From a phage, in the NCBI GenBank assembly GCA_012690745.1, contig GCA_012690745.1_4086.1: a DNA stretch of 64,000 nucleotides. One strand, given 5' to 3'. The notes below the pieces were generated by a model. The model did no database searches, was not told the DNA's origin, and saw nothing but the letters and a program-made list of their open reading frames with translations. Made by a program: the position numbers and the translations under genes. Below are positions 214 through 48,511 of this stretch, piece by piece. Position 1 is the first letter of the stretch. Every line of letters begins with the position of its first letter.

Positions 214-900
214 ATGGCTACAATGCTTGATCGATATGGCGTACCGCTCGCTGGCGGTGGTCGTATCTCTATGAAACAACCAAAAGCAAAATACAAATTT
301 CGTGTTATTTTCTTTGGTTTTGGTACTAATGATGATGGTAATATGATTACACTAGACACCAATACAGTTGGGGCAGTATCTGTATCACATGAAAACGTCA
401 CTGTTCATAGTTACAACAGTTCTGCACACTACAAAGGGAAATACACTTGGGATACAATTGATGTTGCTTTCCGTGACTCTGTAGGTAATGCTTCTGCTAA
501 AGCACTATACAACCAAATGCGTAAAGAATTTAACTACTACAGTCAAGAATCTCGCATGACAGATTCACAATTTAAATTTGAAATGTGGATTCAAGAGCTT
601 GATGGTTCTAATAGTGAAAATACAACAAACTTGTTTGAAGGAACATTGAGTACTTGGGTATGTCAAGGTTGCTTTATTGAATCCAGCAACTTTGGTGATT
701 GGGATTATTCCTCAAGTGAAGCACAAGTTATTTCAATGACTGTTCAACCAGATGGTTGTGCTAAATTGGGTCCAAACGGCGAAGCGTTCGGTGATGAAGT
801 TAGTGGCTTCGGTAATCCATCAACTGCTACCTCTATTTCTGGTGCACAAACTAATATTAGTAGTACTACTCTACCAGACAGTAACTTCTACGAAAATTAA
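214..900 (+). CDS. hypothetical protein, paralog 1 of a duplicated pair (possibly virion/tail-tube-family; unverified)
   Basis: 228-aa ORF; ATG at 214 preceded by AGGAGA (203-208). Shares the N-terminal motif KYGVPL..G...SM.QPKAKYKFRVI and the internal RDSVGNASAKAL with the next ORF. Structural assignment is a guess from motif pattern only. Confidence 0.55.
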   Translation: MATMLDRYGVPLAGGGRISMKQPKAKYKFRVIFFGFGTNDDGNMITLDTNTVGAVSVSHENVTVHSYNSSAHYKGKYTWDTIDVAFRDSVGNASAKALYNQMRKEFNYYSQESRMTDSQFKFEMWIQELDGSNSENTTNLFEGTLSTWVCQGCFIESSNFGDWDYSSSEAQVISMTVQPDGCAKLGPNGEAFGDEVSGFGNPSTATSISGAQTNISSTTLPDSNFYEN

Positions 901-994
901 TTTTATTTAAACTTAATATATAGCCTCGAATCTATTCGGGGCTTTTTTTATGCTAAATAAAGTATAATGCCTTATAAAATAAAAAGAGGTTGCT

Positions 995-1771
995 ATGGCA
1001 AATAACATGATTAATAAATATGGCGTTCCTTTACCATCGGGGCGTAATCGTTCAATGCTACAACCGAAAGCAAAATACAAGTTTCGTGTTATTGTGTATA
1101 ATTTCGGTACTGATATAGATGAACGTGATCACATCGCATTAGATGTTGATAAAATTGATAGACCTACTGTAACATTTAGTACTCATAAACTATATCAATT
1201 TACTACTAATACTTCCTATATAGGTAGTCATGATTGGGAACCAATTACTATATCTATACGTGATTCAGTTGGAAATGCATCAGCAAAAGCATTATCACGC
1301 CAACTACAAAAACAACTTGACTTTCAACGCAGAATAACTTCAAGAAATGACCAAGATTATGGTTCTTATAAATTTGGTTTAGTTATACAGATGTTGAGTG
1401 GTCGTAACTCAGATGATACACTAGAAAATCTAGGAAGAGATACACTAGTAGATGCTGCAACTGCTGCAACAAATAATGCTGGCTTAGTAAATGCAGTAGA
1501 TCAATTTATTGGTGGTTCTTCTTATAACAGTGCTGGTGTTATGGAATACTTTGTTTTAACCGGATGTGTTATTCAAAACATATCATACGATTCATTAGAC
1601 TATAGTTCAAGTTCTCCAGTTGAAATGGTAGTGACTATCAAACCAGATAATTGTATACAATTTGATAACATTGAAGAAATGTATAGTACCAGAATTAATT
1701 CACTTTTACCTGAAAATGTCAATCAAGGTTTAGATATCATTGATCGTGTTTTTGGTAGTGTAGGATTTTAA
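995..1771 (+). CDS. hypothetical protein, paralog 2 of the duplicated pair
   Basis: 258-aa ORF; RBS AAGAGG upstream of ATG 995. Clear paralogy with 214-900 (same N-terminal and RDSVGNASAKAL motifs). Confidence 0.55.
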   Translation: MANNMINKYGVPLPSGRNRSMLQPKAKYKFRVIVYNFGTDIDERDHIALDVDKIDRPTVTFSTHKLYQFTTNTSYIGSHDWEPITISIRDSVGNASAKALSRQLQKQLDFQRRITSRNDQDYGSYKFGLVIQMLSGRNSDDTLENLGRDTLVDAATAATNNAGLVNAVDQFIGGSSYNSAGVMEYFVLTGCVIQNISYDSLDYSSSSPVEMVVTIKPDNCIQFDNIEEMYSTRINSLLPENVNQGLDIIDRVFGSVGF

Positions 1772-1782
1772 GGAGATAATGA

Positions 1783-3890
<2,108 letters not shown>

Positions 3891-3917
3891 CTTAAACGAC
3901 CTTATGGAGTTATTAAA

Positions 3918-4454
3918 ATGAATAGATTACAACAAATCCTAACTGAAAAGAAACCAGTTTATGAATACCGAGTTAAGTTTGCAGTTGAACCAACACCTGA
4001 GCAACTTAGTAAAGTAACACAGCGACTAATGGATCGCTATGATGCGTTTGAAATTGGAGCACTAAAGAAAACAATTTTTATGGAAAAACCATTAGATTTC
4101 TATGAATTAGATTGTGGTGAAATTTGGATGTTTGACTTTAAATGTCATCGTGGCGTTCAATCAAATGTACTAATGTATGAAATTGGCAATTTACTAAGCA
4201 TGACAGAAGCATTGATTCGTGTTCGTAGTAAAGATGAACCTCGTCAAATTGAAATGACTGATTTGGAAGATGATATCGATTTTGATGATGTTGATGAACC
4301 AGTTATTGGAGTGGATTTTGGTAAACCAGAAGACAGTTATGACTTAGCTGGACAACAACGTGCAAACACTGCCGTTGATGATGCAATTGAAGCATCGAAA
4401 AAAGACAATAAATACTCTCAATATATGAGTGCTGGTTTTGGTAAAAAGGATTAA
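3918..4454 (+). CDS. hypothetical protein
   Basis: 178-aa ORF, ATG at 3918, tightly packed with neighbours; acidic C-terminal half. Confidence 0.5.
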   Translation: MNRLQQILTEKKPVYEYRVKFAVEPTPEQLSKVTQRLMDRYDAFEIGALKKTIFMEKPLDFYELDCGEIWMFDFKCHRGVQSNVLMYEIGNLLSMTEALIRVRSKDEPRQIEMTDLEDDIDFDDVDEPVIGVDFGKPEDSYDLAGQQRANTAVDDAIEASKKDNKYSQYMSAGFGKKD

Positions 4455-4457
4455 CAC

Positions 4458-5000
4458 ATGAGTATACTTAATGAAATGTTAGATTATGAAGACAATGAGT
4501 TAAATGAAGCTCGTCCTTATAGTCGTTCACAAAGTGCAGTTGATAGTGCAAAAGGAAAAGTAAAAGGCTTTTTTGGTAGTGGACAGATTGAACAAGGTGC
4601 ACAAGAAGTTGGTGCTGAAGCCAACCGCTTATGGGCAGAGTTTAAACGTTATGTTGGACGTAAATATGGTAAAGCTCAACCATCAGTACCTTACGCTGAT
4701 GTGGCACAGTTTTTTAAAGGTAACAATCTTGATATTAAACATTTAGGGAACAATCCTCGTCGTTCTTTTACACCAAAAGATGTAGGTACTGCTCTATTAA
4801 ATGCTGCTCGTGATATAATGAATGACTACCGTGACCAACAAGGTGGCGAAGAAAGTTCAGAATCACAACCATCACAATCGACCTCAACTGAGCAACCAGC
4901 ACAACAAGAACAACCAAAAGCACAAGGTTCCAGTATCCCTGATGCTCTACAAAAATTAAGTCCAGAGCAACGCGACCAACTGTTACGTATGCTTTCTTAA
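4458..5000 (+). CDS. hypothetical protein with low-complexity Q/E/S-rich C-terminus
   Basis: 180-aa ORF starting 4 nt after the previous stop. Confidence 0.5.
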   Translation: MSILNEMLDYEDNELNEARPYSRSQSAVDSAKGKVKGFFGSGQIEQGAQEVGAEANRLWAEFKRYVGRKYGKAQPSVPYADVAQFFKGNNLDIKHLGNNPRRSFTPKDVGTALLNAARDIMNDYRDQQGGEESSESQPSQSTSTEQPAQQEQPKAQGSSIPDALQKLSPEQRDQLLRMLS

Positions 5001-5013
5001 GGAGAATCAACAC

Positions 5014-6531
5014 ATGGATAATTTTTTCAGTACTGAAACTACCACAGTTCCTAATGGATATGTATATACGTCACATACTGGTGCAAAATATGTATTTCTT
5101 GAAGGATTCTGGTTCAATGACAATAATATGTTAATGGTAGACCCTAGAAAATACCCATCCATGTACGCAAGTGCTCGACAACAGATTGTCGAGCACAATC
5201 TAGCTTCAAATGAATATAAGATTGGTAACAAATATATTGTTGAAGGTAAAGAGTGTACATTTATTGGTGAAAACCGTTTCAATTCAAAAGATGGAATTCT
5301 ATTAACTGAAAGTGAATTCATCACTGAATTAATGGCAGATGATCATCGAGTATATAATGTTTCTAAAGAAACACTACAAAAAGAATGGAATGCATTAAAA
5401 TTTTACATTCTTCCACCATATGCTGATGATATATCAATTCCAGCAGGTATGGAAGTAAGTGGTTTTAAATTTGTGCCAAAGAATCACCGTTTTGTTGATA
5501 TGAAATCAGGACGAGCAGTTGATCCAGCAATGACCCGTAAACTATCAGATGAAGGTATGCGTATTGCTCGTCAGTTAGCTTCTAAAAATAAACTAATTCC
5601 AATCAAATCAACCTTAGTTCAAGGCAATACACGTTGTGAGTGGAATGGTAAAGAATTTTGTGATAATGATGGTAATGTAGTAATTCCAGAACAAAATGCA
5701 CATGCAATTATTAATGCATATCAGCAATTTGTTAAGAATAACCCAAGTGATTTTCCTACATTAACGGGTGAACAAGAACATAGTGAGCAACGTTTTGGTT
5801 CAGGTGAAAAGCCACATAAAGCTTCACACCCTGCTAAACAGCCAGTATTTGCAACTAAAGAATCAATTAATGAAGCAGATGAAGAAATTGAAGAATTTGA
5901 AAGCATTACTGTTCCTGACGGTTATAGAATGACTTCTTCTAAAGGAAAAACATACGCTAAGAAAAATAACTTGTGGTATGATATCGAAAGTAAAAAGCAA
6001 CTTAACACAAGTGCTTCTAAAAGTGTTGAACGAGCAGCACAGCGTGATATTTTCCGTCATAACAATTCCGGTGCTATGAAAATCGGTACAAAAGTTAAAT
6101 CCAAACAAGGCAAAGAATATTCGTATGTTGGTGGTGACAGATTCATTAGTGCTGATGGTAAGTTTATACCAAAAGCAACTGCTGCTAAATTACTTGCCAA
6201 ATATGAACAAGATAAAGAAGTTAAAAGTGATGAAACACCTGAAGTAGACTCTGGTACTGAGCAAATTCAATCAAAAGAAGAACCTAAGAAAGAACCAGAA
6301 TCTGAACAAAAACCAGACGAAGTTTCTGAACCAGAAACTAAATCTGAAACAATTGCTGGTGATGATGTACAATCATTAGCTTCTAAAATTAAAGAGTCAC
6401 CTTATGCTAAAAAAATCACAGTACTACTAACTCGTGGTGATGAGGTTTCTCTACTTGCTGCTGACATTTTACTTTCAGGTAAAAAGGATGAAACAGTGCA
6501 AATTTTAAAATCATTAAATAATAATGATTGA
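5014..6531 (+). CDS. hypothetical protein with internal repeats and a lysine/glutamate-rich C-terminal region
   Basis: 505-aa ORF; RBS AAGGAGA upstream. Repeated short module VPNGYVYTSHTGAKYVF / VPDGYRMTSSKGKTYAK / KSKQGKEYSYVGGDRFISADGKF. Confidence 0.55.
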   Translation: MDNFFSTETTTVPNGYVYTSHTGAKYVFLEGFWFNDNNMLMVDPRKYPSMYASARQQIVEHNLASNEYKIGNKYIVEGKECTFIGENRFNSKDGILLTESEFITELMADDHRVYNVSKETLQKEWNALKFYILPPYADDISIPAGMEVSGFKFVPKNHRFVDMKSGRAVDPAMTRKLSDEGMRIARQLASKNKLIPIKSTLVQGNTRCEWNGKEFCDNDGNVVIPEQNAHAIINAYQQFVKNNPSDFPTLTGEQEHSEQRFGSGEKPHKASHPAKQPVFATKESINEADEEIEEFESITVPDGYRMTSSKGKTYAKKNNLWYDIESKKQLNTSASKSVERAAQRDIFRHNNSGAMKIGTKVKSKQGKEYSYVGGDRFISADGKFIPKATAAKLLAKYEQDKEVKSDETPEVDSGTEQIQSKEEPKKEPESEQKPDEVSEPETKSETIAGDDVQSLASKIKESPYAKKITVLLTRGDEVSLLAADILLSGKKDETVQILKSLNNND

Positions 6532-6553
6532 TAACTAAAAGGATTTATTTAAA

Positions 6554-7534
6554 ATGGCTAAAAAAATTAATGAAGCACAAGTTAAAATCGATATCGCAGG
6601 TTTAGAATCTGATGATTTGGAAACTCTATCACGTATGTTAGCTCTTGCTGGTCAAGCTGAACGTCAAGACCCAGTAGTTGCCGCTCCAGTACCATCTATG
6701 GGGTCTATGACTCCATCTCTTCCACCTATTGCTCCACTAGATCTCGATTCTATTGGTGCTGAAGAAGAAATTGGTGGAATTGAAACTTCAGTTGAAGACC
6801 CACTAGCAGCGGCAGTTGATGATCTTTCCGCTGATGTTGGTGATTTTGGTGCTGACACAGATGAAGTTAGTATGGATGCTGAATTTTCAGAACCAGGTGT
6901 AGAAGGTGAAGAAGATTTTTCTCTTGACCTTAGTGGTCAACCTCAACTAGAATCAGTTGAAGAAGACGATGAGGAAGAAGAAGAAATTATTGAAGAAGAA
7001 TTCGATTTTAGTCGTATGCTATCTCTTGCTGGTATTAACGAAGAAGAAGACGAAGATTTTTCAGTAGAGGGTAATCCTGCTACCGATAAAGAAATGAAAG
7101 ATACCCAATTTCTACCAGATCTAAGTATCTCTGAAGATGAAGAACCATCTAACAGTACTGATTATGGTCCATATGATACAGAAGCTGATGCCGTTCGTGA
7201 TGGTCAACTAAAGACTAATGGTGTTGAAGGTGACCATTTTGTTGTAATTGCAAAAGGCAATCAATTTTATTGGAGACGTGTTGTAGATGAAGATCTTGAC
7301 AATCGTCCAGAACCTGAGTATTATGATAATGAAGGGAACGAAAATCGTGTTCATAAATTTGAACCAAAATTCCCAGGCACTGCATTAGGAGATAACCCAC
7401 TAAATGTTAATGAAAGTGAAGAAGATGATTCACCTGAAGGTAACATTGACTTGGAAGATGATTCTGATGAAGAAGTAGAAGATATTTTTGAAAGTCTCCA
7501 AGAAAAATACAAGAAATTTTTAGGAGACAAATAA
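6554..7534 (+). CDS. highly acidic protein (Asp/Glu-rich; candidate DNA-mimic or virion internal protein)
   Basis: 326-aa ORF with long D/E runs (EEDDEEEEEIIEEEFDF) and a duplicated motif SRMLALAGQAE / SRMLSLAGINEE. Confidence 0.55.
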   Translation: MAKKINEAQVKIDIAGLESDDLETLSRMLALAGQAERQDPVVAAPVPSMGSMTPSLPPIAPLDLDSIGAEEEIGGIETSVEDPLAAAVDDLSADVGDFGADTDEVSMDAEFSEPGVEGEEDFSLDLSGQPQLESVEEDDEEEEEIIEEEFDFSRMLSLAGINEEEDEDFSVEGNPATDKEMKDTQFLPDLSISEDEEPSNSTDYGPYDTEADAVRDGQLKTNGVEGDHFVVIAKGNQFYWRRVVDEDLDNRPEPEYYDNEGNENRVHKFEPKFPGTALGDNPLNVNESEEDDSPEGNIDLEDDSDEEVEDIFESLQEKYKKFLGDK

Positions 7535-7535
7535 T

Positions 7536-7931
7536 ATGCAATATAATTATCGTGAACTAGTTGAAGCGTTAGACGAAATTACCGGAAGAGATGAAGACGA
7601 AAGTTTTTCAGTTGAAGTTGAATCCGATGTTGTAGCAGTTGATGTTCTTAAGGATATTACCAAATGTCTTATTGATATTGTTGATAAGATTAAATCTGGT
7701 GAAGACCAAAAAGAAATTGTAGATAAACTACAAAAAGCCTGTGACATTTTGTCTGACATTCGATATAATGATGAAAGTACTGAAGTTGCTGATGAAGAAG
7801 TGTTGGAAGCCATTGCAGGTTGTTTTGGAACTGAAGGTATGGGACCAACAATTGACAAAGAAGGCGTACAACACTATAATGAGCCTGGTGCACCATCATA
7901 TGCTGCACGTCAAGGTTTTGTTGGAGACTAA
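7536..7931 (+). CDS. small acidic hypothetical protein
   Basis: 131-aa ORF, ATG 2 nt after the upstream stop; net strongly acidic. Confidence 0.5.
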   Translation: MQYNYRELVEALDEITGRDEDESFSVEVESDVVAVDVLKDITKCLIDIVDKIKSGEDQKEIVDKLQKACDILSDIRYNDESTEVADEEVLEAIAGCFGTEGMGPTIDKEGVQHYNEPGAPSYAARQGFVGD

Positions 7932-7934
7932 TAT

Positions 7935-8315
7935 ATGTTTCCAGAACCATCACATAACAGTACTGAATATCAAAATAATGTACTTTCCAAAGTTAGGGAA
8001 GTACATGAATCAGATTCAGAAATAACAGACCGTATGCTTCTGATGTCAATTTTTGAAAATTTCAGAACTGGCGGTGGTTTACGTCTTAGCAAGTTTGGGT
8101 ATGGAATTTGTAAAGAAAATAATCTTTATGAATTTACAAAAATCCCCTTGCAAAGAGAATTTAAAAGTTCTATAATGTTTACATCACTTGACAGAATATG
8201 TACTTCACCTTATTATGTTGAAGGTCAGTACATATATCTGACAGATGCAATGATAATAACTGAATTAACATTGTGTTGTGACGATTTTAAACAGTTATTT
8301 TCTATTCATATGTAA
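7935..8315 (+). CDS. hypothetical protein
   Basis: 126-aa ORF, last gene before the promoter-rich intergenic region. Confidence 0.4.
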   Translation: MFPEPSHNSTEYQNNVLSKVREVHESDSEITDRMLLMSIFENFRTGGGLRLSKFGYGICKENNLYEFTKIPLQREFKSSIMFTSLDRICTSPYYVEGQYIYLTDAMIITELTLCCDDFKQLFSIHM

Positions 8316-8339
8316 GAAAAAATGAATTAAAAATAAATG

Positions 8340-8367
8340 TTGACAAGATAGAATGATGTGATACAAT
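8340..8367 (+). promoter_or_regulatory. sigma70-like early promoter P1 (TTGACA - 16 nt - TACAAT with upstream TGTGA)
   Basis: ttgacaAGATAGAATGATGTGAtacaat; the same architecture recurs at four other sites. Confidence 0.6.
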
Positions 8368-8432
8368 AAGCATCAGACATAAAGTTTTCAAGCGACACAA
8401 GATGTGAGTTTGAAAAAAAAGAAAAAAAGTGA

Positions 8433-8460
8433 TTGACAAGTTGAAACGATGTGATATAAT
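8433..8460 (+). promoter_or_regulatory. sigma70-like early promoter P2 (TTGACA - 16 nt - TATAAT)
   Basis: ttgacaAGTTGAAACGATGTGAtataat, about 170 nt upstream of the AAA+ ATPase gene. Confidence 0.7.
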
Positions 8461-8521
8461 GTTCACATCAAGACAGCAAAGAGATTTACCTTTTAAACAC
8501 ACGGATGATTCATGAAGTAAC

Positions 8522-8562
8522 AAAGGAACTGATAAGTTAAATTATTTTAACACAGTTCCTTT
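8522..8562 (+). other. 5'-UTR hairpin (10-bp stem, 21-nt loop) between promoters and the AAA+ gene
   Basis: AAAGGAACTG (8522-8531) pairs with CAGTTCCTTT (8553-8562); followed by a T-rich stretch. Possible attenuator or processing site. Confidence 0.35.
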
Positions 8563-8629
8563 ACTTTTGCCCACGGATTGGCTATAATAGAAACTTAAAC
8601 GATTTTATCCAACAAAAGGAAATATATAC

Positions 8630-9955
8630 ATGACTACTCAAAACGATATCCTGAACGTTAAACTGACTCCAAAGAAAGCTAAAGAAGCAATGGCACTAGC
8701 TGACATGATTCAAGATAGCCTGATGATTTGGGGTAGCCCAGGTATCGGTAAGTCTGCAATCGCTCGTCAATACGCTGATGAAAATTACCCACTGCGTAAA
8801 GATAACGTAGCTAAAATCGAGTTCATGAAACAACAAATCGAAGCTGACCCTGAAAATGCTGATCAGCTACGCCGTGAACTGGCTGCATTTGAAGCAAAAC
8901 TAATCGACCAAGATACTAACTTTATCGATTTCCGTTTGTCTCAAATCGAACCAAGTGACCTTCGCGGTATTCCAGTACCAGAGAAGCTTTTCCGTAAAAC
9001 TGACGGTTCTCTTCTGAAAGAATCTGAGCTTGCCGAAGCAAAAGATTATGTAGCTGAAACTGCGGTAGTATGGGCTGCACCTAAAGTTCTGAAATTGTCC
9101 GAAGATTGGAAAGGTGTTATTCTGTTTGACGAAATTAACTCTGCAATGCCTATTGTTCAGGCAGCGTCTTATCAGCTAATCCTCGACCGTTGTGTTGGTG
9201 AGATGAAGCTACCTAAGACTGCACTGATTCTTGCAGCAGGTAACCGTGAAACTGATGGCGGTGTAACTTTCTCTCTTGCTACACCACTGCGTGACCGTAT
9301 GACTCACATTGAGATGATTCCTTATCATCAAGATTGGATTAACGATTATGCGATTGCAAAACGTTTGAACCCAGCAACTGTTGCGTTCATCAACAACACT
9401 GGTTCTAAGTACTTTAACACACTTAGTCCACAAGATCCTTCTCACAGTGGTGGTACTTCTCCACGTTCATGGGAAGCAGTAGCACGCTACGAAGATCTCA
9501 AGAAAACTAAGACAATTGATAAAGAAGTGTTCCGTGCAATGATTGCTGGTCGTGTTGGTGAAGGTGTTGCAACTGAATACATTGAGTACGTTGAGAACGT
9601 TGCTAAACTACCAGATACTATGTCTATTCTGTCTGGTGAAATCAAAGAAATCGACGCAACGCTGGATATTTCTGCGAACTACTTTATCACTCTGAACTTG
9701 GTTTATAAAATTATCGACCTGTTCAATGAGAAGCAAGAACAACGTCTACCAGTGGAAGAATGGGGTAAACTGTGTAACAACTTCATCACCTTCCTAGACC
9801 ATAACTTCTCTGCAACTCAAGCAGAACTGGCAGTACTGGCAATTCGTACCATCACGCTTCATAAGGTTGCGATTTCCATTAAAGATGTACCAGCGTTTAA
9901 AGATTTCATCGCTAAGTACTCTGAACTTGTACGTAAAGCACGCTCTCTTGGCTAA
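8630..9955 (+). CDS. AAA+ ATPase, MoxR/CobS-like (AAA_5-type)
   Basis: 441 aa. Walker A GSPGIGKS, Walker B VILFDEIN, downstream LILAAGNRE sensor-like segment. Strong RBS AAAGGAAA. Codon usage is GC-richer (CTG, CGT) than the structural genes. Confidence 0.8.
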   Translation: MTTQNDILNVKLTPKKAKEAMALADMIQDSLMIWGSPGIGKSAIARQYADENYPLRKDNVAKIEFMKQQIEADPENADQLRRELAAFEAKLIDQDTNFIDFRLSQIEPSDLRGIPVPEKLFRKTDGSLLKESELAEAKDYVAETAVVWAAPKVLKLSEDWKGVILFDEINSAMPIVQAASYQLILDRCVGEMKLPKTALILAAGNRETDGGVTFSLATPLRDRMTHIEMIPYHQDWINDYAIAKRLNPATVAFINNTGSKYFNTLSPQDPSHSGGTSPRSWEAVARYEDLKKTKTIDKEVFRAMIAGRVGEGVATEYIEYVENVAKLPDTMSILSGEIKEIDATLDISANYFITLNLVYKIIDLFNEKQEQRLPVEEWGKLCNNFITFLDHNFSATQAELAVLAIRTITLHKVAISIKDVPAFKDFIAKYSELVRKARSLG

Positions 9956-9976
9956 TTAACAAAGAGTTGTTGACAA

Positions 9977-10008
9977 GAAGGATGCCTAATGGTATCCTTC
10001 TTTTATCT
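9977..10008 (+). terminator. intrinsic terminator after the AAA+ ATPase gene
   Basis: GAAGGATGCC...GGTATCCTTC stem (one G-U) followed by TTTTATCTT. Confidence 0.55.
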
Positions 10009-10029
10009 TAACTAAACGAGGAAATATAC

Positions 10030-11454
10030 ATGTCAGATAACAAATCTACTTCCAGATTCAATGAAGTATCTCCGGCACTCCAGAAAGAATGTCAAGAACG
10101 TCTGGTTCTGGCTCGTACATCTTTGATGTTAACTGCACCATTCTTTGGTGTACTCGCTTCACGTTTACGTCCAGTTCCTAATAATACATGGTGTCGTACT
10201 CTAGCAGTGGATGGTAAACATCTATTCTACAACGTAGAATTTGTAATGGGCATTCAAGACCCATCTAAAAAGAAAGAATATGAAGAAGCTATTCGTGAAA
10301 AGCACCCTGAAGTTACAGACGAACAATTAAAAGAAATGACTGAAGGTTTGACTGATGAAAACCTTGTTGCTGTAATTTGTCATGAAATTCTACACTGTGC
10401 TTACGATCACTTCCTTCGTCGTGGTATGCGTGATCCACAACGTTATAACCGTGCAGCGGATTATGCCATTAACCAAATCATCGTTCGTGAGAAAATTGGG
10501 AAAATCCAAAGTTCATGGTTGTATGATAAAAAATATGAAGGCATGACCGCAGAAGAGATTTACATTCTTCTTGAAGAAGAAGAACAAAAAGAAGATGGTG
10601 AAGGTGAAGGTCAACCACAAAGTGGTGGCGGTGAAGGTGAAGGTAAAAATCGCGGTACTTTTGGCGATATTAAAGATGGTAAGGGTAAACCAAAAGGTAC
10701 TACCATTGACCAGCATGACGTTCCACAAGAAGGTCAAGAAGGTGGTTCAAGTGAACAGCAAAAACGTGATTATATGGATGATTTCAAAACAGCAATGATG
10801 AATGCTGCACGTGCAGGTGGTACACCAGCAGAAATCGCTCGTATGATTAACAACTTTAAAGAACCAAAGATTGACTGGCGTTCAAAACTTCAACGTACAC
10901 TTCGTAGTTGGTTGAAGTCTGATGCAACATATCAAAATCCGAATCGTCGTTCTTGGGGTGCAGGTTTTGGTTCTAATGGTTCATTCTATGGTAATCCAAT
11001 TTACCCAGGGATGAAACCAGATGATGACATTGATATTGCGATTGCACTAGATGCTTCTGGATCTATTTCTGAAGATATGCTTCGTGATTTCATTAGTGAA
11101 GTTCTAGGTATCACTAAACAATTCAAACAGTTTAAGATTCGTATCATGACTTTTGATACTGAAGTTTATACTGTAAAGGATTACAAAACTGGCGAAGAAC
11201 GTAAGATTCTGGAATATCCAGTAAAAGGTGGTGGTGGTACTGACTTTGAAGCAGTATGGGTTCATATGAAGAACGACAACTACAAGCCTAAACAGCTTGT
11301 AATGTTTACAGATGGTGAACCGTGGCAGTCGTGGGGTGATCCAAACTACTGTAAAACACTGTTCGTGATTCACAGTAACCCAAATAAAGTTGCACCATTT
11401 GGTGAGACTGTACACTACGAATATGAAGCTGATAAAAAGCGTCAACGTAGTTAA
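10030..11454 (+). CDS. VWA-domain protein with N-terminal HExxH putative metallopeptidase domain (DUF2201-like, CobT/ViaA-like partner of the AAA+ ATPase)
   Basis: 474 aa. HEILH zinc-binding motif in the N-terminal domain; E/G-rich disordered linker; C-terminal MIDAS-like DASGS motif (IAIALDASGSIS) typical of von Willebrand A domains. Confidence 0.7.
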   Translation: MSDNKSTSRFNEVSPALQKECQERLVLARTSLMLTAPFFGVLASRLRPVPNNTWCRTLAVDGKHLFYNVEFVMGIQDPSKKKEYEEAIREKHPEVTDEQLKEMTEGLTDENLVAVICHEILHCAYDHFLRRGMRDPQRYNRAADYAINQIIVREKIGKIQSSWLYDKKYEGMTAEEIYILLEEEEQKEDGEGEGQPQSGGGEGEGKNRGTFGDIKDGKGKPKGTTIDQHDVPQEGQEGGSSEQQKRDYMDDFKTAMMNAARAGGTPAEIARMINNFKEPKIDWRSKLQRTLRSWLKSDATYQNPNRRSWGAGFGSNGSFYGNPIYPGMKPDDDIDIAIALDASGSISEDMLRDFISEVLGITKQFKQFKIRIMTFDTEVYTVKDYKTGEERKILEYPVKGGGGTDFEAVWVHMKNDNYKPKQLVMFTDGEPWQSWGDPNYCKTLFVIHSNPNKVAPFGETVHYEYEADKKRQRS

Positions 11455-11466
11455 GTACTAAATAAT

Positions 11467-11497
11467 GAGAACGGAATTTTCCGTTCTCTTCTTTTAT
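11467..11497 (+). terminator. intrinsic terminator
   Basis: GAGAACGG-aatttt-CCGTTCTC followed by TTCTTTTAT. Confidence 0.65.
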
Positions 11498-11501
11498 AAG
11501 T

Positions 11502-11529
11502 GGGACAACTTATAAAAATATGATATAAT
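11502..11529 (+). promoter_or_regulatory. sigma70-like early promoter (GGGACA - 16 nt - TATAAT)
   Basis: gggacaACTTATAAAAATATGAtataat; same spacing and ATGATATAAT -10 context as P2. Confidence 0.5.
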
Positions 11530-11563
11530 AGTTAATGTACCAATATACATGGAGAGTATTAAA

Positions 11564-11809
11564 ATGGAACAAGAAAATAATCAAATTCAACTAACCCTTC
11601 TAGACCTAATCAATGCTGCAAAAATTATGGAAGCTGCTGTTGCACGAAACACCTTTAAAGTTGAAGAACTTGTTGAGGTTGCTCCAGTTGTATCTAAATT
11701 TGTTTCTTTTGCAAATGTAGCTCTTGAAGATATTAAAGCACAAGAAGATGCAGCTAAAGAAGAAGCTGAATCACAAGATAGTGAAACTCAAGAAGATAAA
11801 GGAGAATAA
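11564..11809 (+). CDS. small acidic hypothetical protein
   Basis: ORF track starts at 11549, but ATG 11564 is preceded by GGAGAG. Product is E/D-rich (EDAAKEEAESQDSETQEDKGE). Confidence 0.45.
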   Translation: MEQENNQIQLTLLDLINAAKIMEAAVARNTFKVEELVEVAPVVSKFVSFANVALEDIKAQEDAAKEEAESQDSETQEDKGE

Positions 11810-11811
11810 TT

Positions 11812-12468
11812 ATGGCAGCTATTCGTCATGTTGGTGTAATGCGTAATACAGGTTCTCGTGTTTTTGTTGTTTGGCGTTCACTACCAGATGATCCTGAACA
11901 CTGCCTTATTGTTTATCGTGATTCACTACCAGAAGCATATGTTCACGCAGTAACTGATATTGTTATGGGTCATGGTCAATCTAATATTGATTTGTGGGAA
12001 GTAATGCATAAAATTGGTTATCTCGATGGACGCAAAATGCTAGATGTTCTACACAATATGCAGCATCTCCGTCGCGTTCGTACTTGTGACATTGATATGC
12101 ACACTGGTGGTAATAATAAAATTTCTCTTGATGTTCTAAACAAAGCATTAGATGAAAATCAAGCAAAAGTACAAGAAGATGGTAAAGTAAAAGACTTTAA
12201 CCCATTCAATCCACAAGAAGCGGACACTAAAGTAGAAGAAGCTACTATTGTAGAACAACTTCTCACTGATGCACAAAAATATGAAAAACTGGCTAAAGAA
12301 CATTATGAACGTGCATATAATTTAGAGCCAAGTTTGCGTCCACAAACACAAGTTGTTGAACAACCGAAAGATAGTAAAACAATTTATCTAGAAATTCCAG
12401 AAGGTATTTCACAGACTAAAGCTATTGAGAAAGTAAAACAACTATTTGCAGAACGTAAAGCAAAATAA
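11812..12468 (+). CDS. hypothetical protein
   Basis: 218-aa ORF; RBS GGAGAA; starts 3 nt after the previous stop. Confidence 0.5.
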   Translation: MAAIRHVGVMRNTGSRVFVVWRSLPDDPEHCLIVYRDSLPEAYVHAVTDIVMGHGQSNIDLWEVMHKIGYLDGRKMLDVLHNMQHLRRVRTCDIDMHTGGNNKISLDVLNKALDENQAKVQEDGKVKDFNPFNPQEADTKVEEATIVEQLLTDAQKYEKLAKEHYERAYNLEPSLRPQTQVVEQPKDSKTIYLEIPEGISQTKAIEKVKQLFAERKAK

Positions 12469-12471
12469 AAT

Positions 12472-13065
12472 ATGAAAAAGAATGAATTAGATGAAGCAAT
12501 AAAAGGTTTATCTAATGTATGTTTTAGTGGCGGGGCAGCAGGTGCTGACCGCCTTTTTTCTATCTATGCAAAAAATAATGGATTTGAAGTTATTAATTTT
12601 TCATTCAAAGGTCATGAGCATAGTGTAGATGAAAGTACTATATTAGAAATACCATCCAATATTCTATCTGATATTTCTATATTAAATCAACTAAACATTG
12701 CATGTTACTCGTTACAGCGAAAAGTACCGAAGCCTGGTTCTTATGTTTACAACTTACTTGCAAGGAATAGTTATCAGATACTTAATACAGAAAGAATATA
12801 TTGTATTGCAAATATCACATCACCAACTAAGGTAAGTGGTGGTACTGCATGGGCAGTACAGATGTATATGGATTCAGTTGAAAATCCTGAAATTTATTGT
12901 TATGATATGAATTCACGTTCAGTATTTTATTTTGATACAGTACTGAAAGAGTTCACACAAACATTCGTCGTTCCAGCACCACATGGTAACTGGACTGGTA
13001 TTGGTTCACGCAATGCCACCGAAAAACATATGGAACATTTTATTACATTTTTCAAGGAAGAATAA
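12472..13065 (+). CDS. Rossmann-like protein with glycine-rich FSGGAAGAD loop (SLOG/DprA/LOG-like; putative nucleotide-processing enzyme)
   Basis: 197-aa ORF; stop overlaps the thymidylate synthase start (ATGA at 13062-13065), implying co-expression. Fold assignment is inferred from the G-rich loop only. Confidence 0.4.
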   Translation: MKKNELDEAIKGLSNVCFSGGAAGADRLFSIYAKNNGFEVINFSFKGHEHSVDESTILEIPSNILSDISILNQLNIACYSLQRKVPKPGSYVYNLLARNSYQILNTERIYCIANITSPTKVSGGTAWAVQMYMDSVENPEIYCYDMNSRSVFYFDTVLKEFTQTFVVPAPHGNWTGIGSRNATEKHMEHFITFFKEE

Positions 13066-26782: not shown

Positions 26783-26892
26783 AATATTTCCCTTGTATGA
26801 GTTAATGTCATATACCAATATTTATCAGTACAAAATACATTTCGTTATCATTAATAAATAAATGAAAGTTCACTACTAAAAGGGCTTAAACA

Positions 26893-32462: not shown

Positions 32463-32504
32463 GATTGTCTCCAAAATAAATCGGGTATATCTTTATTTAC
32501 CTTG

Positions 32505-34897: not shown

Positions 34898-37800
34898 TTA
34901 CTTAACTAATAATATATTTTTAATATCATTACCACTAACTTGTAGACTATCAGTGTATACTGAAAGATCTATAGTGTAACTATTTTGTGTGTAACGTTTT
35001 AACATATCATAATTACCTAAATTAATTCCATTGAAAGAATATGTGGTATTAAGTTTAAAATCATGTTCTGCACTATACATTACACCACGGAGTAAATTAT
35101 TTGCATTTCTAACTTCAACTTTTTCATATCCAATCGATATAATATCATTCATGTTCGCGGCTGAACCGGATAAAACATTATTTCTAATACTATAAGGACT
35201 TATTGATTTAGGTTGAGAAACATAGGTTGTATTTTCTTCACTAATGGTTGTGATGTTAGTAACAGTACCACCAACAACACCGATATACATACCGTCAACC
35301 ATTGGGAATCCATAAACCCATATCCCTTCATTATTTCTAAACGGTTGAATAACACTTGAATCATATTCGATAACGTTGATTTCTAAACTATCAGTCATTT
35401 TAGTTCTTGCCAATTCACTAAGAACTCCCGCACCCGTAATTGGTAAGTTATAACCGTTATCGATAGTAATTCCATCAACATCAAATATTTCATTGGAGAT
35501 TATCCAAACGTCAACGTCATCTGGTGTTATTCCGTCATTGTACTTACCACCATTTAAAGTAATATCGTAGAAAACATCATAATTAATTACATCAATGGTG
35601 TAATTTCTATTTTGTTCATACAATTTAATACCATTCTTGACAAATTCAGGGTCAGCAAATGTTCTAACACGAACAATGTTCAATGCTAGAGGCTGTACTG
35701 GCTCATTTTGTTGTGCAAGAGTGATGTTATCATAACGGAGAACTGCACCAGTACTCTCATCAATCAATTCAATCGTTTCCTTACCTGTATTTCTTACAGT
35801 GAATAGGATCGGAGTTGTATTGTTTTTGATGTTAGATACACGCAAGATTGTTTCCCATGTGTGATTTTGATATCTCACAAAATCTTCACCATCAGGAGTG
35901 AAAATCATCACCTTATCACCATCAGATAGGTCATTGTCAACTATTTCTGCTTCAGTTAAGCTATTAATAGATCTCACACGATAGAAATATTTTTCATCAA
36001 ACTTCGATGTTGTTTTATTAATATCATTTTCAATCTTAGCATATGAAGGAATACTTACAATTGCTTCTGTATGTTTATATGGATTGATAATTGCCATACC
36101 TTCAGTTTGATATCTGCTGTTATCACGTAATTGTACAAGAGATACATTGTCAAACCCATATCCATCAACTGTAAATCTAATTTGTCCAACATCACGCCCA
36201 GAAGGGTTTATGTCAGATATATCCACAATATAAGGATCAACTTCATCATCTTTAACTTCCCATTTTATTGAAGAAGTTTGAGATTCCAATGCTAGGTTAT
36301 CAAATGCATTCATATCATTGAAGTACTTAGCTTCAGTAATACTATCAAGTATATATTGATAATCAGAATACATTGGATTATTTTGATCTAGTGGTAAATC
36401 ATCAAGATTTATTTCAGCTAGTTCAACCATTTCACCATTTGTGATAAAATAATCTTCCATGAAATCATCAATACTTTGTTCATCAGGTATACTTTGATAT
36501 ACACCGTTAACATTTAAGTAAACATATTTTCGTGGAATCATTGTAATTGCATAGATATCAATTGGGGTCTTACTAAGAATCTCTTCAGCTTTTTCGTACT
36601 TATCAGTAGCGTCTTTGTCGAATAACCCTCTCATACCTGCTAATACGTGAATAGCATCAGTATAGAAACGGGTATCACCACCTACTTCATCATAACGATA
36701 AACATATACACCATACTCAACTTCAAGTTTAACTTTTACTTCATAGTCTGATGCGTCAGGATTTTTATCTTTAATTAATGAAATGTATTTTTGATACAAT
36801 TCACTGCTTATTTCAAAATATCCATAGTTATAATCATTACTAGAAGAAAAGCCTAATGGAAGTCTAGTACTAGGATTGTCATTATAAGTAAGTCCACTAA
36901 ATCCACATCCAACTTCATCGTGAATTTTCTCATCACTTATATCTTTATAAAGTTTCAAACGGTTTGCCAATGTGTTATACTGAACATATTGTCTAAGGTC
37001 AGTAAACATATCGTTATGCGTTGATTCTTTATAAACACGTTCCAATGTAGCAGTGAATTCATCAGTTGCTTCTAAATCTTCCGCATGGTCTTTATACCAC
37101 TGGTTAACGCCATATGCTGTTCCTAGTGTTACATCCAATTCTGGATAGTAGATTTGCATTTGATAAGCAATAAGAAGATCGAAAGTTTCTTCACTATATT
37201 CTGGGAAAGAATATATATAACGTTGTAATTCATAGTTACTAACAGCATCCTTTTCATTGGATTGATATTTGTTATTAACACTTACTAATTCATTTATGCT
37301 TGCCAAATCTTCATTTGGTTTACACTGAATATTATCATAATGCATAATAATATCAATTTCTTGGAATCTTCTATTTGGTGTAACGAAATCACTTGGTAGT
37401 GAACCTACCTGTTCCCATTTTTGGGTAATTTCATTAAATTGAGCGTACTCATAATCCCAAATATCTTTTTCAGTTTTGATCCAAGAACCGTCAACGAAAA
37501 TATATCCATTAGGATCTAAATCATTACATAGACCTTTTATTAAATCATCATCAGATGTCTTTTGCTCTATTTGTGAACGAATTTTAGTTCTATAAGGTTT
37601 AACTTCTTCAAAATATTCAACAATTTGATTAATCAAATTATCGTTTGAATAGTTTTGAACTAATGATTGTTCCAAACCAACAATATAGATATATGATGTT
37701 TTAAATACCCAATCCACAACACTTTGTTCAACATGTACATATTTGACCATATCAAAAACAATTTCGCTTTGATGTAAATCGAAAGAATTTTTGAGTAAAG

Positions 37801-44899: not shown

Positions 44900-44914
44900 T
44901 TGATTTATTTATGA

Positions 44915-48410: not shown

Positions 48411-48475
48411 AATTTATTCCTTTAAATCAGTAAAGTACTAGTTCAGTACTGGGAATTATATATAGAAATATTTAT

Positions 48476-48507: not shown

Positions 48508-48511
48508 GTAA

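What the first reader, a model, noticed from the sequence alone, without database searches (positions are those of the whole stretch)
6554..7931. Adjacent extremely acidic proteins: candidate DNA mimics or anti-restriction factors
The 326-aa product carries long Asp/Glu runs and a duplicated SRML(A/S)LAG motif; the following 131-aa product is also strongly acidic, as is the small protein at 11564-11809. Highly acidic phage proteins are often DNA mimics (Ocr, ArdA-type) or nucleoid/defence inhibitors; alternatively they could be scaffold or internal virion proteins.
Basis: inference. Interest (0 to 1): 0.55.

Follow-up and report, generated by a model that had tools for sequence, protein, structure and literature searches.

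The report
Acidic minor virion proteins, jumbo coliphage
The two very acidic proteins are real, but they are already-catalogued minor particle proteins of Rak2-like giant coliphages, encoded in the tail-tube/neck assembly operon and mostly disordered, and nothing ties them to Ocr/ArdA-type DNA mimics.

Summary
The window is an Asteriusvirus (Rak2-like jumbo coliphage), 99.6% identical to G17, Sharanji and 121Q. ORF 6554-7534 (protein A = 121Q gp560) has pI 4.05 and net charge -75. ORF 7536-7931 (protein B = gp561) has pI 4.10 and net charge -21. They are the two most acidic of 52 long ORFs, and the SRML(A/S)LAG duplication is non-random.

The DNA-mimic reading is not supported. Both genes sit in a block conserved across the clade: tail tube x3, T4 gp4-like head completion, four more genes, A, B, one more gene, then a MoxR ATPase and a vWA-metallopeptidase. 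They have no promoter or terminator of their own. Homologues were found in purified virions by mass spectrometry (CBB_213/214, RaK2 gp051, phAPEC6 gp267c).

AlphaFold predicts A as largely disordered, with short conserved helices and one 40-residue mini-domain. There is no Pfam, PDB or fold match to Ocr, ArdA, phiKZ internal head proteins or T4 gp2.

Best reading: low-abundance, fast-evolving, polyanionic virion or assembly proteins of the neck/tail-completion module, whose location and function are unknown. Packaged anti-defence decoys and inner-body components remain minority possibilities. The third acidic ORF (11549-11809) is a separate, non-virion gene.

The parts
6554..7534 (+). Protein A (326 aa; = 121Q gp560, phAPEC6 gp267c, RaK2 ORF050, CBB_213, GAP32_207). 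A polyacidic, mostly disordered minor virion protein, PHROG 15988.
   Evidence: composition; 121Q 'structural protein'; phrog_15988, E 1e-141; mass-spectrometry detection in relatives; AlphaFold.
6554..6664 (+). Conserved N-terminal module, aa 1-37: MxKKINEAxVKIDxxGLESxDLETLSRMLALAGQAE. It includes the first LAG helix (predicted helix aa 19-36; SRMLALAG at nt 6629-6652).
   Evidence: Invariant L17, S19, L31, A32, G33, A35 across 73 sequences. Helix. Tryptic peptides from this segment were found in CBB virions. By coverage arithmetic the single phAPEC6 peptide also comes from here.
7010..7033 (+). Second LAG motif, SRMLSLAG (aa 153-160), a short predicted helix inside the acidic linker.
   Evidence: Distant relatives carry 2-4 copies of the same kind of motif, for example IAEALRIAGIQLDEV.
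7109..7135 (+). Conserved linear motif (F/L)LPDLS(I/L)xE (aa 186-194).
   Evidence: D189 invariant; L187, P188, L190, S191 and E194 conserved in at least 90% of sequences.
7163..7279 (+). Small beta-alpha-beta-beta mini-domain (aa 204-242). It is the only confidently folded part of A and is present in 1-4 copies in some relatives.
   Evidence: pLDDT of about 90-96. Tandem copies in P0016, P0026, P0052 and P0072. The domain also occurs in other virion-protein PHROGs (P0174, P0183). No PDB match by profile or by fold.
7376..7402 (+). Conserved motif GTALGDNPL (aa 275-283).
   Evidence: G279, D280 and N281 are invariant in alignment A1 (31 sequences) and conserved in at least 90% of the 73-sequence alignment A3.
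7475..7522 (+). C-terminal amphipathic helix (aa 308-323), V.DIFESL...Y.KF.G.
7536..7931 (+). Protein B (131 aa; = 121Q gp561, RaK2 gp051, CBB_214, GAP32_208), PHROG 14971. It has an N-terminal helix (MxYNYRELVESLDAI), an acidic linker, a helical hairpin (aa 30-74), a second acidic linker and a conserved C-terminal tail ending APSYAARQGFVG.
   Evidence: RaK2 gp051 'identified by MS/MS'. CBB_214, 1 peptide.
11549..11809 (+). Protein C (86 aa, or 81 aa from 11564; = 121Q gp565). A small acidic protein in a separate transcription unit. Not part of the A/B pair.
   Evidence: phrog_13789, unknown function. Terminator at 11467-11488 and a sigma-70-like site at 11502-11529 lie upstream. Absent from the CBB and phAPEC6 virion tables. 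Syntenic in the clade.
214..2877 (+). Context: three tail-tube paralogues (gp552-554) that open the block.
2877..3305 (+). Context: T4 gp4-like head-completion protein (TnsA-like nuclease fold), which marks the neck / head-completion module.
   Evidence: blastp against T4 gp4, E 2.5e-14. NCBIfam TnsA-like..
3336..6531 (+). Context: gp556, gp557, gp558 and gp559, uncharacterised genes between the gp4-like gene and A. gp557-559 are annotated as virion proteins; gp559 contains three internal repeats.
7935..8315 (+). Context: gp562 (126 aa), the last gene of the tightly packed run.
8630..11454 (+). Context: MoxR-type AAA+ ATPase (8630-9955) and DUF2201 metallopeptidase-vWA protein (10030-11454). 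The pair has been proposed in the literature to be a virion-assembly chaperone.
   Evidence: PF13203, PF09967. (Iyer et al. 2021). ATPase seen in phAPEC6 virions. Syntenic even in distant loci L007 and L037.
922..961 (+). Terminator (922-943) followed by a TAAATAAA element (954-961). This is the only such pair upstream of A and B, so it is the candidate start of the transcript that carries them.
   Evidence: The next + strand terminator is at 9975-10002.

Best explanation
A (gp560 family) and B (gp561 family) are conserved, low-abundance virion-associated proteins of Rak2-like jumbo myoviruses. They belong to the tail-tube / head-completion (neck) morphogenesis block.

Shown:
- The genes are co-oriented, one base apart, and lack a promoter-like element or terminator of their own.
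- The gene order is fixed across the clade.
- Homologues are present in purified particles.
- The N-terminal module of A is retained in the particle.
- A is predicted to be an intrinsically disordered polyanion carrying six short conserved islands and one mini-domain.
- B is predicted to be a small helical hairpin with acidic linkers and a conserved C-terminal tail.

Inferred mechanism: the short amphipathic LAG helices and the other conserved islands act as docking motifs for a structural partner in the neck, portal or tail-tube region. The variable polyacidic linkers act as an electrostatic or entropic spacer, either repelling DNA or standing in for it in a channel. This would happen during head-tail completion, perhaps with help from the adjacent MoxR / vWA-metallopeptidase pair. 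Part of the protein stays in the finished particle and may be cleaved in the linker.

These proteins are not Ocr/ArdA-type folded DNA mimics.
For: Identity and context:
- The window is 99.6% identical to Asteriusvirus genomes.
- 121Q annotates gp557-561 as structural proteins, lying between tail sheath/tube/gp4-like and the MoxR ATPase.
- The same order, tube x3 - gp4 - 556 - 557 - 558 - 559 - A - B - 562 - MoxR - vWA, is found in 18 full-length related loci.
- The order survives in reduced form in more distant loci (L006, L007, L037), and in L013 as sheath, tube, gp4-like, gp556-like, gp557-like, A-like, then a short protein whose N-terminus resembles that of B. Another distant homologue sits beside a T4 gp15-like tail-sheath stabiliser.

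Transcription:
- There is no terminator between 943 and 9975.
- The strong sigma-70-like sites lie in the 8316-8629 gap, after the A/B run.
- TAAATAAA elements sit just upstream of several structural genes, including at 954, but none lies before A or B on the + strand.

Virion presence:
- CBB_213, 5 peptides; CBB_214, 1 peptide.
- Peptide-level data include IDVQGLESNDLETLSR and MLALAGQAENK from the conserved N-terminus.
- phAPEC6 gp267c: 1 peptide at 4.9% coverage. This can only be the 16-residue peptide IDIAGLESDDLETLSR.
- RaK2 gp051 was identified by MS/MS.
- Only 31% of A falls in tryptic peptides of 7-30 residues, which in part explains the low coverage.

Structure:
- A has mean pLDDT 60.7. 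Confidence is above 90 only in the aa 204-242 mini-domain, and helices are predicted at 19-36, 152-158 and 308-323.
- B has helices at 5-16, 30-53 and 58-74.

Other points:
- Conserved islands alternate with variable acidic linkers in alignments of 31 and 73 sequences.
- The MoxR / vWA-peptidase pair has been proposed as a virion-assembly and processing chaperone for this phage group.
- In the CBB gel, N-terminal peptides appear alone in upper slices. In the two lowest slices (proteins of about 10-25 kDa) only mini-domain peptides appear. This is consistent with cleavage in the linker.
Against: - No experiment places A or B in the neck or tail rather than inside the head. Gene position is only circumstantial.
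- Spectral counts are low (2-4 per gel slice, against 64 for the major capsid protein in slice 01). B was not detected in phAPEC6. Carry-over of an assembly factor therefore cannot be excluded.
- phAPEC6 virion preparations also contained thymidylate synthase, RecA-like and SSB proteins, so that dataset includes non-structural contaminants.
- The docking-motif and spacer mechanism is inference from sequence architecture. No partner was identified.
- The gel-slice pattern rests on very few spectra from a homologue that is 44% identical, and acidic proteins migrate anomalously.
Confidence: 0.55

Rival explanations
1. Packaged, co-ejected anti-defence decoys. A and B are carried in the particle near the leading DNA end or in the tail channel and enter the cell with or ahead of the DNA. 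There the polyanionic chain competes with DNA for restriction, BREX or RecBCD-type enzymes. In delivery this resembles the packaged P1 Dar proteins, T4 IPI* or T4 gp2. In chemistry it resembles Ocr, but with a disordered chain.
For: - Extreme negative charge is conserved across the family.
- The proteins are virion-associated.
- In T4, the gene directly after gp4 is gp2, the injected DNA-end protector. No gp2 homologue is detectable in this block, and A and B lie five and six genes after the gp4-like gene.
- A, B and gp559 are the fastest-evolving genes of the block, at 31-46% identity against 52-80% for the neighbours. An arms race could produce this pattern.
- Some distant relatives fuse the module to DUF7249, a domain of unknown function.
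Against: - No similarity to Ocr, ArdA or any other family in Pfam, NCBIfam or PDB.
- No rigid DNA-like charge array is predicted.
- Fast evolution is equally expected for low-complexity disordered linkers.
- T4 gp2 is basic (pI 10.1) and unrelated.
- A full-text search for papers linking Asteriusvirus to anti-defence or DNA-mimic terms returned none among the listed hits that mention the genus.
Confidence: 0.15
2. Internal head proteins: components or organisers of the bubblegram 'inner body' seen in 121Q and phAPEC6 capsids, or remnants of an acidic scaffolding core like the T4 gp22/gp67 internal peptides.
For: - 121Q and phAPEC6 have a 91 x 18 nm inner body whose proteins are unidentified.
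- A and B are virion proteins without an assigned place.
- Acidic, partly helical and partly disordered proteins are typical of scaffolds (own knowledge: T7 gp9, T4 gp22/gp67).
- B and two relatives give sub-threshold hits to Pfam phiKZ_IP (best E 3.6e-4).
- The CBB gel pattern hints at proteolytic processing.
Against: - Profile-profile comparison of the B family with phiKZ gp92-96 gives probability 0.3%.
- The genes lie in the tube/neck block, about 60 kb from the portal, and not beside the protease, scaffold and capsid genes, which phAPEC6 numbers as gp225-230.
- The N-terminus of A is retained, unlike T4 internal proteins, whose targeting peptide is cut off (own knowledge of T4).
- Spectral counts are far too low for a structure of roughly 15-20 MDa (volume estimate is my own).
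- A polyanion embedded in packed DNA is electrostatically unfavourable.
Confidence: 0.13
3. Non-structural assembly chaperones or clients of the MoxR / vWA-metallopeptidase machine that merely co-purify with particles. Under this reading they are not true virion components.
For: - Low peptide counts, and B missing from phAPEC6.
- The phAPEC6 preparation contained obvious non-structural proteins, including the MoxR ATPase itself.
- Adjacency to MoxR/vWA is conserved in distant loci.
- A chaperone role has been proposed for that pair.
- vWA MIDAS sites typically bind acidic ligand residues (own knowledge).
Against: - Detected independently in three phages by different laboratories.
- The MoxR and vWA proteins were not detected in CBB, whereas CBB_213 and CBB_214 were.
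- MoxR has its own sigma-70-like promoters, which suggests different timing.
Confidence: 0.12

Closest known systems
PHROG 15988 / 14971 'virion structural protein' (RaK2 ORF050/gp051, GAP32_207/208, CBB_213/214, phAPEC6 gp267c/gp266c, 121Q gp560/gp561)
   Same: Full-length HMM matches (E 1e-141 and 3e-60). 100% identity to the 121Q proteins. Same gene order. These are the same proteins.
   Different: Nothing differs. The families have no assigned function, location or structure, and their acidity and motif architecture have not been described in the papers read here.
Ocr (T7 gp0.3) and ArdA DNA-mimic anti-restriction proteins
   Same: Very low pI and high density of Asp/Glu.
   Different: Ocr and ArdA are compact folded dimers that copy the shape and charge spacing of DNA. 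They are made first after DNA entry and are not particle components (own knowledge). A is predicted mostly disordered, lies in a structural operon, is found in virions, and gives no Pfam or fold match.
T4 head-completion genes 4 and 2 (gp2 = injected DNA-end protector)
   Same: The block contains a true gp4 homologue (E 2.5e-14). In T4 the next gene, gp2, encodes a virion protein that enters with the DNA.
   Different: gp2 is basic (pI 10.1) and has no detectable similarity to any protein in the block. A and B are five and six genes downstream of the gp4-like gene, not adjacent to it.
Packaged anti-restriction proteins (P1 DarA/DarB/Hdf, T4 IPI*)
   Same: Delivered inside the particle. Minor virion proteins.
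   Different: No sequence relationship. T4 internal proteins lose an N-terminal targeting peptide, whereas the N-terminus of A is retained. No defence phenotype is known for A or B.
Acidic scaffolding / prohead-core proteins (T7 gp9, T4 gp22, gp67, gp68) and phiKZ inner-body proteins (PF12699)
   Same: Acidic, with helical segments separated by flexible regions. Possibly proteolytically processed.
   Different: Not encoded beside the capsid and protease genes. No Pfam match. hhalign against the phiKZ internal head protein paralogues gives probability 0.3%.
MoxR AAA+ / vWA chaperone pairs (the Acidianus two-tailed virus tail-development system; the jumbo-phage 'group 2.2' MoxR / vWA-metallopeptidase pair)
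   Same: A and B lie just upstream of such a pair, and the adjacency is conserved in distant phages. The pair has been proposed to assist virion assembly and processing.
   Different: A and B are not themselves ATPase or vWA proteins. Any client relationship is conjecture.

Membership tests
PHROG 15988 (A) / PHROG 14971 (B): Rak2-like virion structural proteins | Full-length profile match. | tested here: met
   E 9.8e-142 over residues 1-326 for A, and E 3e-60 over 2-131 for B.
PHROG 15988 (A) / PHROG 14971 (B): Rak2-like virion structural proteins | Conserved position between gp559 and gp562 in the tube / gp4 / MoxR block. | tested here: met
   18 full-length loci plus the reduced loci L006, L007 and L037. 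RaK2, CBB, XaC1, Munch, BF and GAP32 annotations.
PHROG 15988 (A) / PHROG 14971 (B): Rak2-like virion structural proteins | Physical presence in purified particles. | not testable with these tools
   Taken from published proteomes of relatives: CBB_213/214, phAPEC6 gp267c, RaK2 gp051. Nothing was measured for this exact phage.
Ocr (PF08684) / ArdA (PF07275) DNA mimics | Sequence-profile match to the family. | tested here: not met
   No Pfam family at E <= 0.1 for A. For B only sub-threshold, unrelated hits. No NCBIfam or PDB sequence hit.
Ocr (PF08684) / ArdA (PF07275) DNA mimics | Compact fold displaying a DNA-like array of carboxylates. | tested here: not met
   AlphaFold on A: 128 of 326 residues have pLDDT below 50, and only a 40-residue mini-domain is confident. 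B has mean pLDDT 62. Foldseek against PDB finds nothing at E below 1.
Ocr (PF08684) / ArdA (PF07275) DNA mimics | Early expression, or leading-region position, ahead of DNA exposure. | tested here: not met
   The genes are embedded in a run of structural genes without a promoter-like site or terminator of their own. Timing was not measured.
Ocr (PF08684) / ArdA (PF07275) DNA mimics | Inhibition of Type I R-M or BREX. | not testable with these tools
   Needs expression and plating assays.
phiKZ-like internal head proteins (PF12699) | Profile match above the Pfam gathering score, or profile-profile homology. | tested here: not met
   B scores 13.7 bits against a cut-off of 27. Three of 14 family members hit, with best E 3.6e-4. 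hhalign against phiKZ gp92-96 gives probability 0.3%.
T4-type internal proteins with a cleaved capsid-targeting sequence | N-terminal peptide removed by the prohead protease at (L/I)xE. | tested here: not met
   A has INE|A at residues 5-8. However, tryptic peptides covering residues 12-38 of the CBB homologue, and by arithmetic residues 12-27 of phAPEC6 gp267c, are present in virions. Cleavage after residue 7 itself cannot be excluded.
T4 gp2 DNA-end protector | Sequence similarity; basic DNA-binding protein. | tested here: not met
   blastp of T4 gp2 against every protein in the block gives no hit better than E = 3. gp2 has pI 10.1, against about 4.1 for A and B.
Capsid scaffolding proteins | Encoded next to the protease and major capsid genes, and largely absent from mature particles. 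| tested here: not met
   The portal lies about 60 kb away, beyond the end of the window. phAPEC6 annotates a separate scaffold, gp226c, beside its capsid gene. A and B peptides are present in mature particles.

The most novel reading that the evidence does not exclude
A and B are a disordered, polyanionic 'DNA surrogate' stored in the portal, neck or tail channel of giant myoviruses. They would plug or line the channel after packaging and leave first at infection. Once inside, the same polyacidic chain would soak up DNA-end or DNA-binding defence enzymes (RecBCD, Type I R-M, BREX) during the long entry of 350 kb of DNA. Functionally this would replace T4 gp2 with an unrelated, disordered mimic, possibly matured by the neighbouring MoxR / vWA-metallopeptidase.
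Probability: 0.1. Interest if true: 0.7.

Novelty: already known. Interest (0 to 1): 0.3.

Why it matters
As it stands, this is a correction. The striking acidity belongs to proteins that are already listed as virion structural proteins of Rak2-like jumbo phages. It should not be read as evidence for an Ocr-like anti-restriction gene.

The remaining interest is modest but real.
- The family has no known location or function.
- It is conserved with the tail-tube / gp4 head-completion block in distantly related large myoviruses.
- It evolves faster than its neighbours.
- It sits next to a MoxR / vWA-metallopeptidase pair that has been proposed to process virion proteins.
- Asteriusviruses have an inner body, and a mode of entry for 350 kb of DNA, whose protein components are not identified.

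A simple heads-versus-tails proteomics experiment, or a knockout, would settle which of these roles the pair serves.

Tried and rejected
1. Ocr/ArdA or any other named family. Pfam, NCBIfam and PDB sequence searches gave nothing for A and only sub-threshold noise for B (SapB_1, phiKZ_IP, eIF2-alpha).
2. Fold recognition. Foldseek against PDB with both AlphaFold models gave no hit at E below 1. The models are low-confidence overall, so this mainly shows there is no compact fold to compare.
3. The phiKZ_IP hint for B. It was followed up with a family-wide Pfam scan (3 of 14 members, all below the cut-off) and hhalign against phiKZ gp92-96 (probability 0.3%). Rejected.
4. A T4-like capsid-targeting sequence. 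The N-termini of A (MAKKINE|A) and B (MQYNYRELVE|A) looked, from memory, like T4 internal-protein leaders. T4 IPI read from the genome starts MKTFKEF...ITE|A, which is only a loose resemblance. Virion peptides from the N-terminus of A argue against removal of the module.
5. T4 gp2 as a positional counterpart. No similarity, and opposite charge.
6. The mini-domain (aa 204-242) searched as a profile against PDB. The best hit was E 0.17, to NEAT domains. Rejected as chance.
7. The T4 late promoter TATAAATA. There are only 3 in the window against 11 expected, and none near A or B. TAAATAAA looks like a better candidate, but it is a lead and not a demonstrated promoter.
8. Structural data on Asteriusvirus necks, or anti-defence screens. 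Literature searches found none. The supplements held for the JP4 proteome paper contain neither the peptides nor the locus tags.
9. Neighbours gp557, gp558 and gp559 against PDB. No informative hit.
10. Searching the CBB supplement for coverage-plus-peptide strings failed because tabs are not matched. The slice distribution was reconstructed instead from occurrence counts and row order.
Full report
**What the window is.** Megablast of 5000-12500 finds 35 phage genomes that cover at least 80% of the query. Twenty are at 99% identity or more: Escherichia phages G17, Sharanji, 121Q, PBECO4, phAPEC6, JP4 and others. These are Asteriusvirus, the Rak2-like jumbo myoviruses of about 350 kb. In 121Q the two flagged ORFs are gp560 and gp561, and the small third one is gp565.

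**The observation.**
- ORF 6554-7534 encodes 326 aa with 96 Asp+Glu against 21 Lys+Arg, pI 4.05 and net charge -75.
- ORF 7536-7931 encodes 131 aa with pI 4.10 and net charge -21.
- ORF 11549/11564-11809 has pI about 4.2 and net charge -12.
- A and B are the two most acidic of the 52 ORFs of at least 100 aa in the window.
- SRMLALAG (aa 26-33) and SRMLSLAG (aa 153-160) occur nowhere else in the six frames. A repeat of that quality never arose in 1000 shuffles.
- All 102 homologues recovered from 5.8 billion proteins are similarly acidic.

**Genomic setting.**
- The order in 121Q is: tail sheath; three tail-tube paralogues; a T4 gp4-like head-completion protein; gp556-559; A; B; gp562; a MoxR-type AAA+ ATPase; a DUF2201 metallopeptidase-vWA protein; C; gp566. 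A DprA-like gene and thymidylate synthase follow.
- The rest of the window holds tail-fibre and baseplate genes. The portal starts only beyond its end.
- The gp4 assignment is solid: blastp against T4 gp4 gives E 2.5e-14.
- The whole order, all on one strand, recurs in 18 full-length related loci. These include RaK2, GAP32, CBB, fHe-Yen9-04, Serratia phage BF and uncultured viral genomes. It recurs in reduced form in Xanthomonas phage XaC1, a Vibrio jumbo phage and a metagenomic contig.
- A profile search of 1.84 billion cluster representatives found only 90 relatives, so the family is narrow.
- The most distant relatives carry the same N-terminal module internally, followed by Met/Pro/acidic linkers and 2-4 further 'LAG' helices such as IAEALRIAGIQLDEV.
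- Two of the distant relatives were located on contigs. One lies in a run of sheath, tube, gp554-like, gp4-like, gp556-like, gp557-like, A-like, then a 93-aa protein whose N-terminus resembles that of B. The other lies next to a T4 gp15-like tail-sheath stabiliser.

The link to the tail-tube / neck-completion genes is therefore older than the Rak2-like clade.

**Transcription (inferred).**
- A and B are one base apart, and each has a Shine-Dalgarno sequence inside the preceding gene.
- The scan finds + strand terminators at 922-943 and 9975-10002 and none between them. The perfect sigma-70-like sites cluster in the 8316-8629 gap in front of the MoxR gene.
- The T4 late motif TATAAATA is not used here.
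- TAAATAAA is not over-represented overall. Even so, six of its nine copies lie just upstream of structural genes in the right orientation, including 954-961 before the second tube gene. None precedes A or B on the + strand.
- A and B therefore look like internal members of a structural transcript. C follows a terminator (11467-11488) and a sigma-70-like site (11502-11529), so it is a separate unit.

**Virion association (from the literature).**
- The CBB proteome lists CBB_213 (= A) with 5 unique peptides and 18.9% coverage, and CBB_214 (= B) with 1 peptide.
- The CBB peptide report names the five CBB_213 peptides: IDVQGLESNDLETLSR and MLALAGQAENK from the conserved N-terminus, and TEFECVQDGQK, QTNGFEGDNFIVIPK and GNAFYWK from the mini-domain.
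- phAPEC6 lists gp267c (35.96 kDa, which matches A) with one peptide and 4.9% coverage. The only tryptic peptide of that size is residues 12-27.
- Low coverage is partly built in. Only 31% of A lies in tryptic peptides of 7-30 residues, and the acidic core is a single 117-residue peptide.
- Abundance is nevertheless low: 2-4 spectra per gel slice, against 64 for the capsid protein in slice 01.
- The N-terminal module is retained in particles, which argues against a T4-style cleaved targeting peptide.
- The two N-terminal peptides occur six times each in the report. They occur without mini-domain peptides in slices 02 and 05 and, by occurrence arithmetic, in three further slices.
- Slices 12 and 13 contain only mini-domain peptides. 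Slice 13 holds mostly 22-24 kDa proteins and one of 10.7 kDa.
- This pattern suggests either cleavage within the acidic linker or anomalous migration. It rests on very few spectra, so I treat it as a hint.

**Structure.**
- With a 73-sequence alignment, AlphaFold gives A a mean pLDDT of 60.7. 128 residues score below 50.
- Helices are predicted at 19-36 (first LAG motif), 152-158 (second LAG motif) and 308-323. One confident beta-alpha-beta-beta mini-domain lies at 204-242.
- Alignments show six conserved islands separated by variable, indel-rich acidic linkers: the N-terminal module, the second LAG helix, (F/L)LPDLSxxE, the mini-domain, GTALGDNPL and the C-terminal helix. In some relatives the mini-domain is repeated up to four times.
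- B is predicted as an N-terminal helix and a helical hairpin, followed by an acidic linker and the conserved tail APSYAARQGFVG.
- Neither model matches anything in PDB. A profile of the mini-domain finds nothing either.

This is the architecture of a flexible polyanion studded with short docking motifs. It is not the architecture of a rigid DNA mimic.

**Families tested.**
- Ocr/ArdA: no profile match, no compact fold, wrong genomic setting.
- phiKZ internal head proteins: B and two relatives give sub-threshold Pfam hits, but hhalign against phiKZ gp92-96 gives probability 0.3%. Rejected.
- T4 gp2, which follows gp4 in T4 and is injected with the DNA: basic, with no similarity.
- Scaffolding proteins: wrong location, and A and B are present in mature particles.

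The only membership that holds is PHROG 15988 / 14971, 'virion structural protein'. That is the same set of Rak2-like proteins.

**Most likely mechanism.**
- I commit to this reading: A and B are minor virion or assembly proteins of the neck / tail-completion module.
- They dock through their conserved helices and motifs onto a structural partner. Their polyacidic linkers serve as an electrostatic or entropic spacer, or as a stand-in for DNA in a channel.
- The adjacent MoxR / vWA-metallopeptidase pair has been proposed by Iyer et al. (2021) to assist virion assembly and processing in this phage group. The adjacency is conserved in distant loci, so a client relationship is plausible but untested.
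- What is shown: gene context, conservation, virion detection in relatives, N-terminal retention and predicted disorder.
- What is inferred: location in the neck or tail, docking, the spacer role, cleavage, and any link to MoxR/vWA.

**Rivals.**
- A packaged anti-defence decoy would fit the charge, the virion delivery, the T4 gp2 positional analogy and the fast evolution of A, B and gp559 (31-46% identity against 52-80% for neighbours). It has no positive evidence, and disordered linkers evolve fast in any case.
- An inner-body role would fill a real gap, because 121Q and phAPEC6 have an unassigned inner body. It is contradicted by gene location, low abundance and the failed phiKZ comparison.
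- Co-purifying chaperones remain possible, because the phAPEC6 preparation also contained clearly non-structural proteins.

**Verdict.** The sequence feature is real. The DNA-mimic interpretation is not supported. The proteins are already catalogued as Rak2-like virion proteins of unknown function. Interest is low to moderate.

Noticed in passing
window 8630-9955 and 10030-11454: A MoxR-type AAA+ ATPase is followed by a protein with a DUF2201_N metallopeptidase domain (HEILH motif) and a vWA domain. RefSeq and PHROG call the second protein an 'HNH endonuclease', which the Pfam hits do not support. The ATPase was detected in phAPEC6 virions (6 peptides) but not in CBB. The pair is syntenic with the tube / gp4 / A / B block even in distant phages.
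   Followed up: partly
window 8316-8629: This 314-nt intergenic gap before the MoxR gene holds several near-perfect sigma-70-like promoters: a 12-of-12 match with an extended TG at 8433-8460 and an 11-of-12 match at 8340-8367. This suggests host-polymerase (early or middle) expression of a gene embedded among structural genes. There is a 1-bp indel relative to 121Q in this gap.
   Followed up: partly
window 4458-5000: gp558 (180 aa) is named 'Hsp70 heat shock protein' in RefSeq and PHROG 16152. It has no Pfam HSP70 match and is far too short, so this looks like a propagated misannotation.
   Followed up: partly
window 5014-6531: gp559 (505 aa, a virion protein) contains three copies of an internal repeat of roughly 100 residues that starts (T)VP(N/D)GY. 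blastp of the N-terminal half against the C-terminal half gives E 1e-11. Its length varies widely among relatives (315-505 aa, and it is split in XaC1). Together with A and B it is the fastest-evolving gene of the block.
   Followed up: partly
window 954-961, 26855-26862, 32492-32499 (-), 44904-44911 (-), 49426-49433 (-), 60107-60114: TAAATAAA is not enriched overall (9 copies against 13.6 expected). Six copies nevertheless lie a few to about 40 nt upstream of gene starts (five structural, one an unannotated ORF at 60132) in the correct orientation. It is a candidate late-promoter core for this phage. The T4 motif TATAAATA is rare here (3 copies against 11 expected).
   Followed up: partly
window 48411-48511, compared with L011 30101-30865: 121Q carries an HNH homing-endonuclease gene (gene 584, 'associated with group I intron') between the baseplate wedge gene and the gp25-like gene. 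In this window the two genes are separated by only 101 nt, so the mobile element is absent.
   Followed up: no
window 214-2877: Three consecutive tail-tube-fold paralogues of 228, 258 and 364 aa. The third has a long Gly/Ser-rich C-terminal extension. All three were detected in phAPEC6 virions. Which one is the major tube protein, and which are terminator or initiator proteins, is not annotated.
   Followed up: no
window 34898-44899 (-): A single 3333-aa ORF (= 121Q gp582, phAPEC6 gp245, 382 kDa), a giant virion protein of unknown role next to the baseplate wedge gene.
   Followed up: no
proteins P0155 and P0168; locus L013 8833-10431: In some distant relatives the A-type LAG/acidic module is fused behind a DUF7249 domain (PHROG 871, function unknown). 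In others it follows an unrelated N-terminal domain of about 115 residues and ends in a conserved basic C-terminal domain (...WLxLDRRYVEKLIKEGVSYSNASKML). The acidic module is therefore a portable cassette.
   Followed up: partly
window 11549-11809: Protein C (gp565) is conserved in synteny downstream of the vWA gene (43-61% identity across the clade). It has its own promoter-like site and is absent from the CBB and phAPEC6 virion proteomes. Of the three acidic ORFs, it is the only one whose setting would suit a small early effector. No homology or structural evidence was obtained for it.
   Followed up: partly
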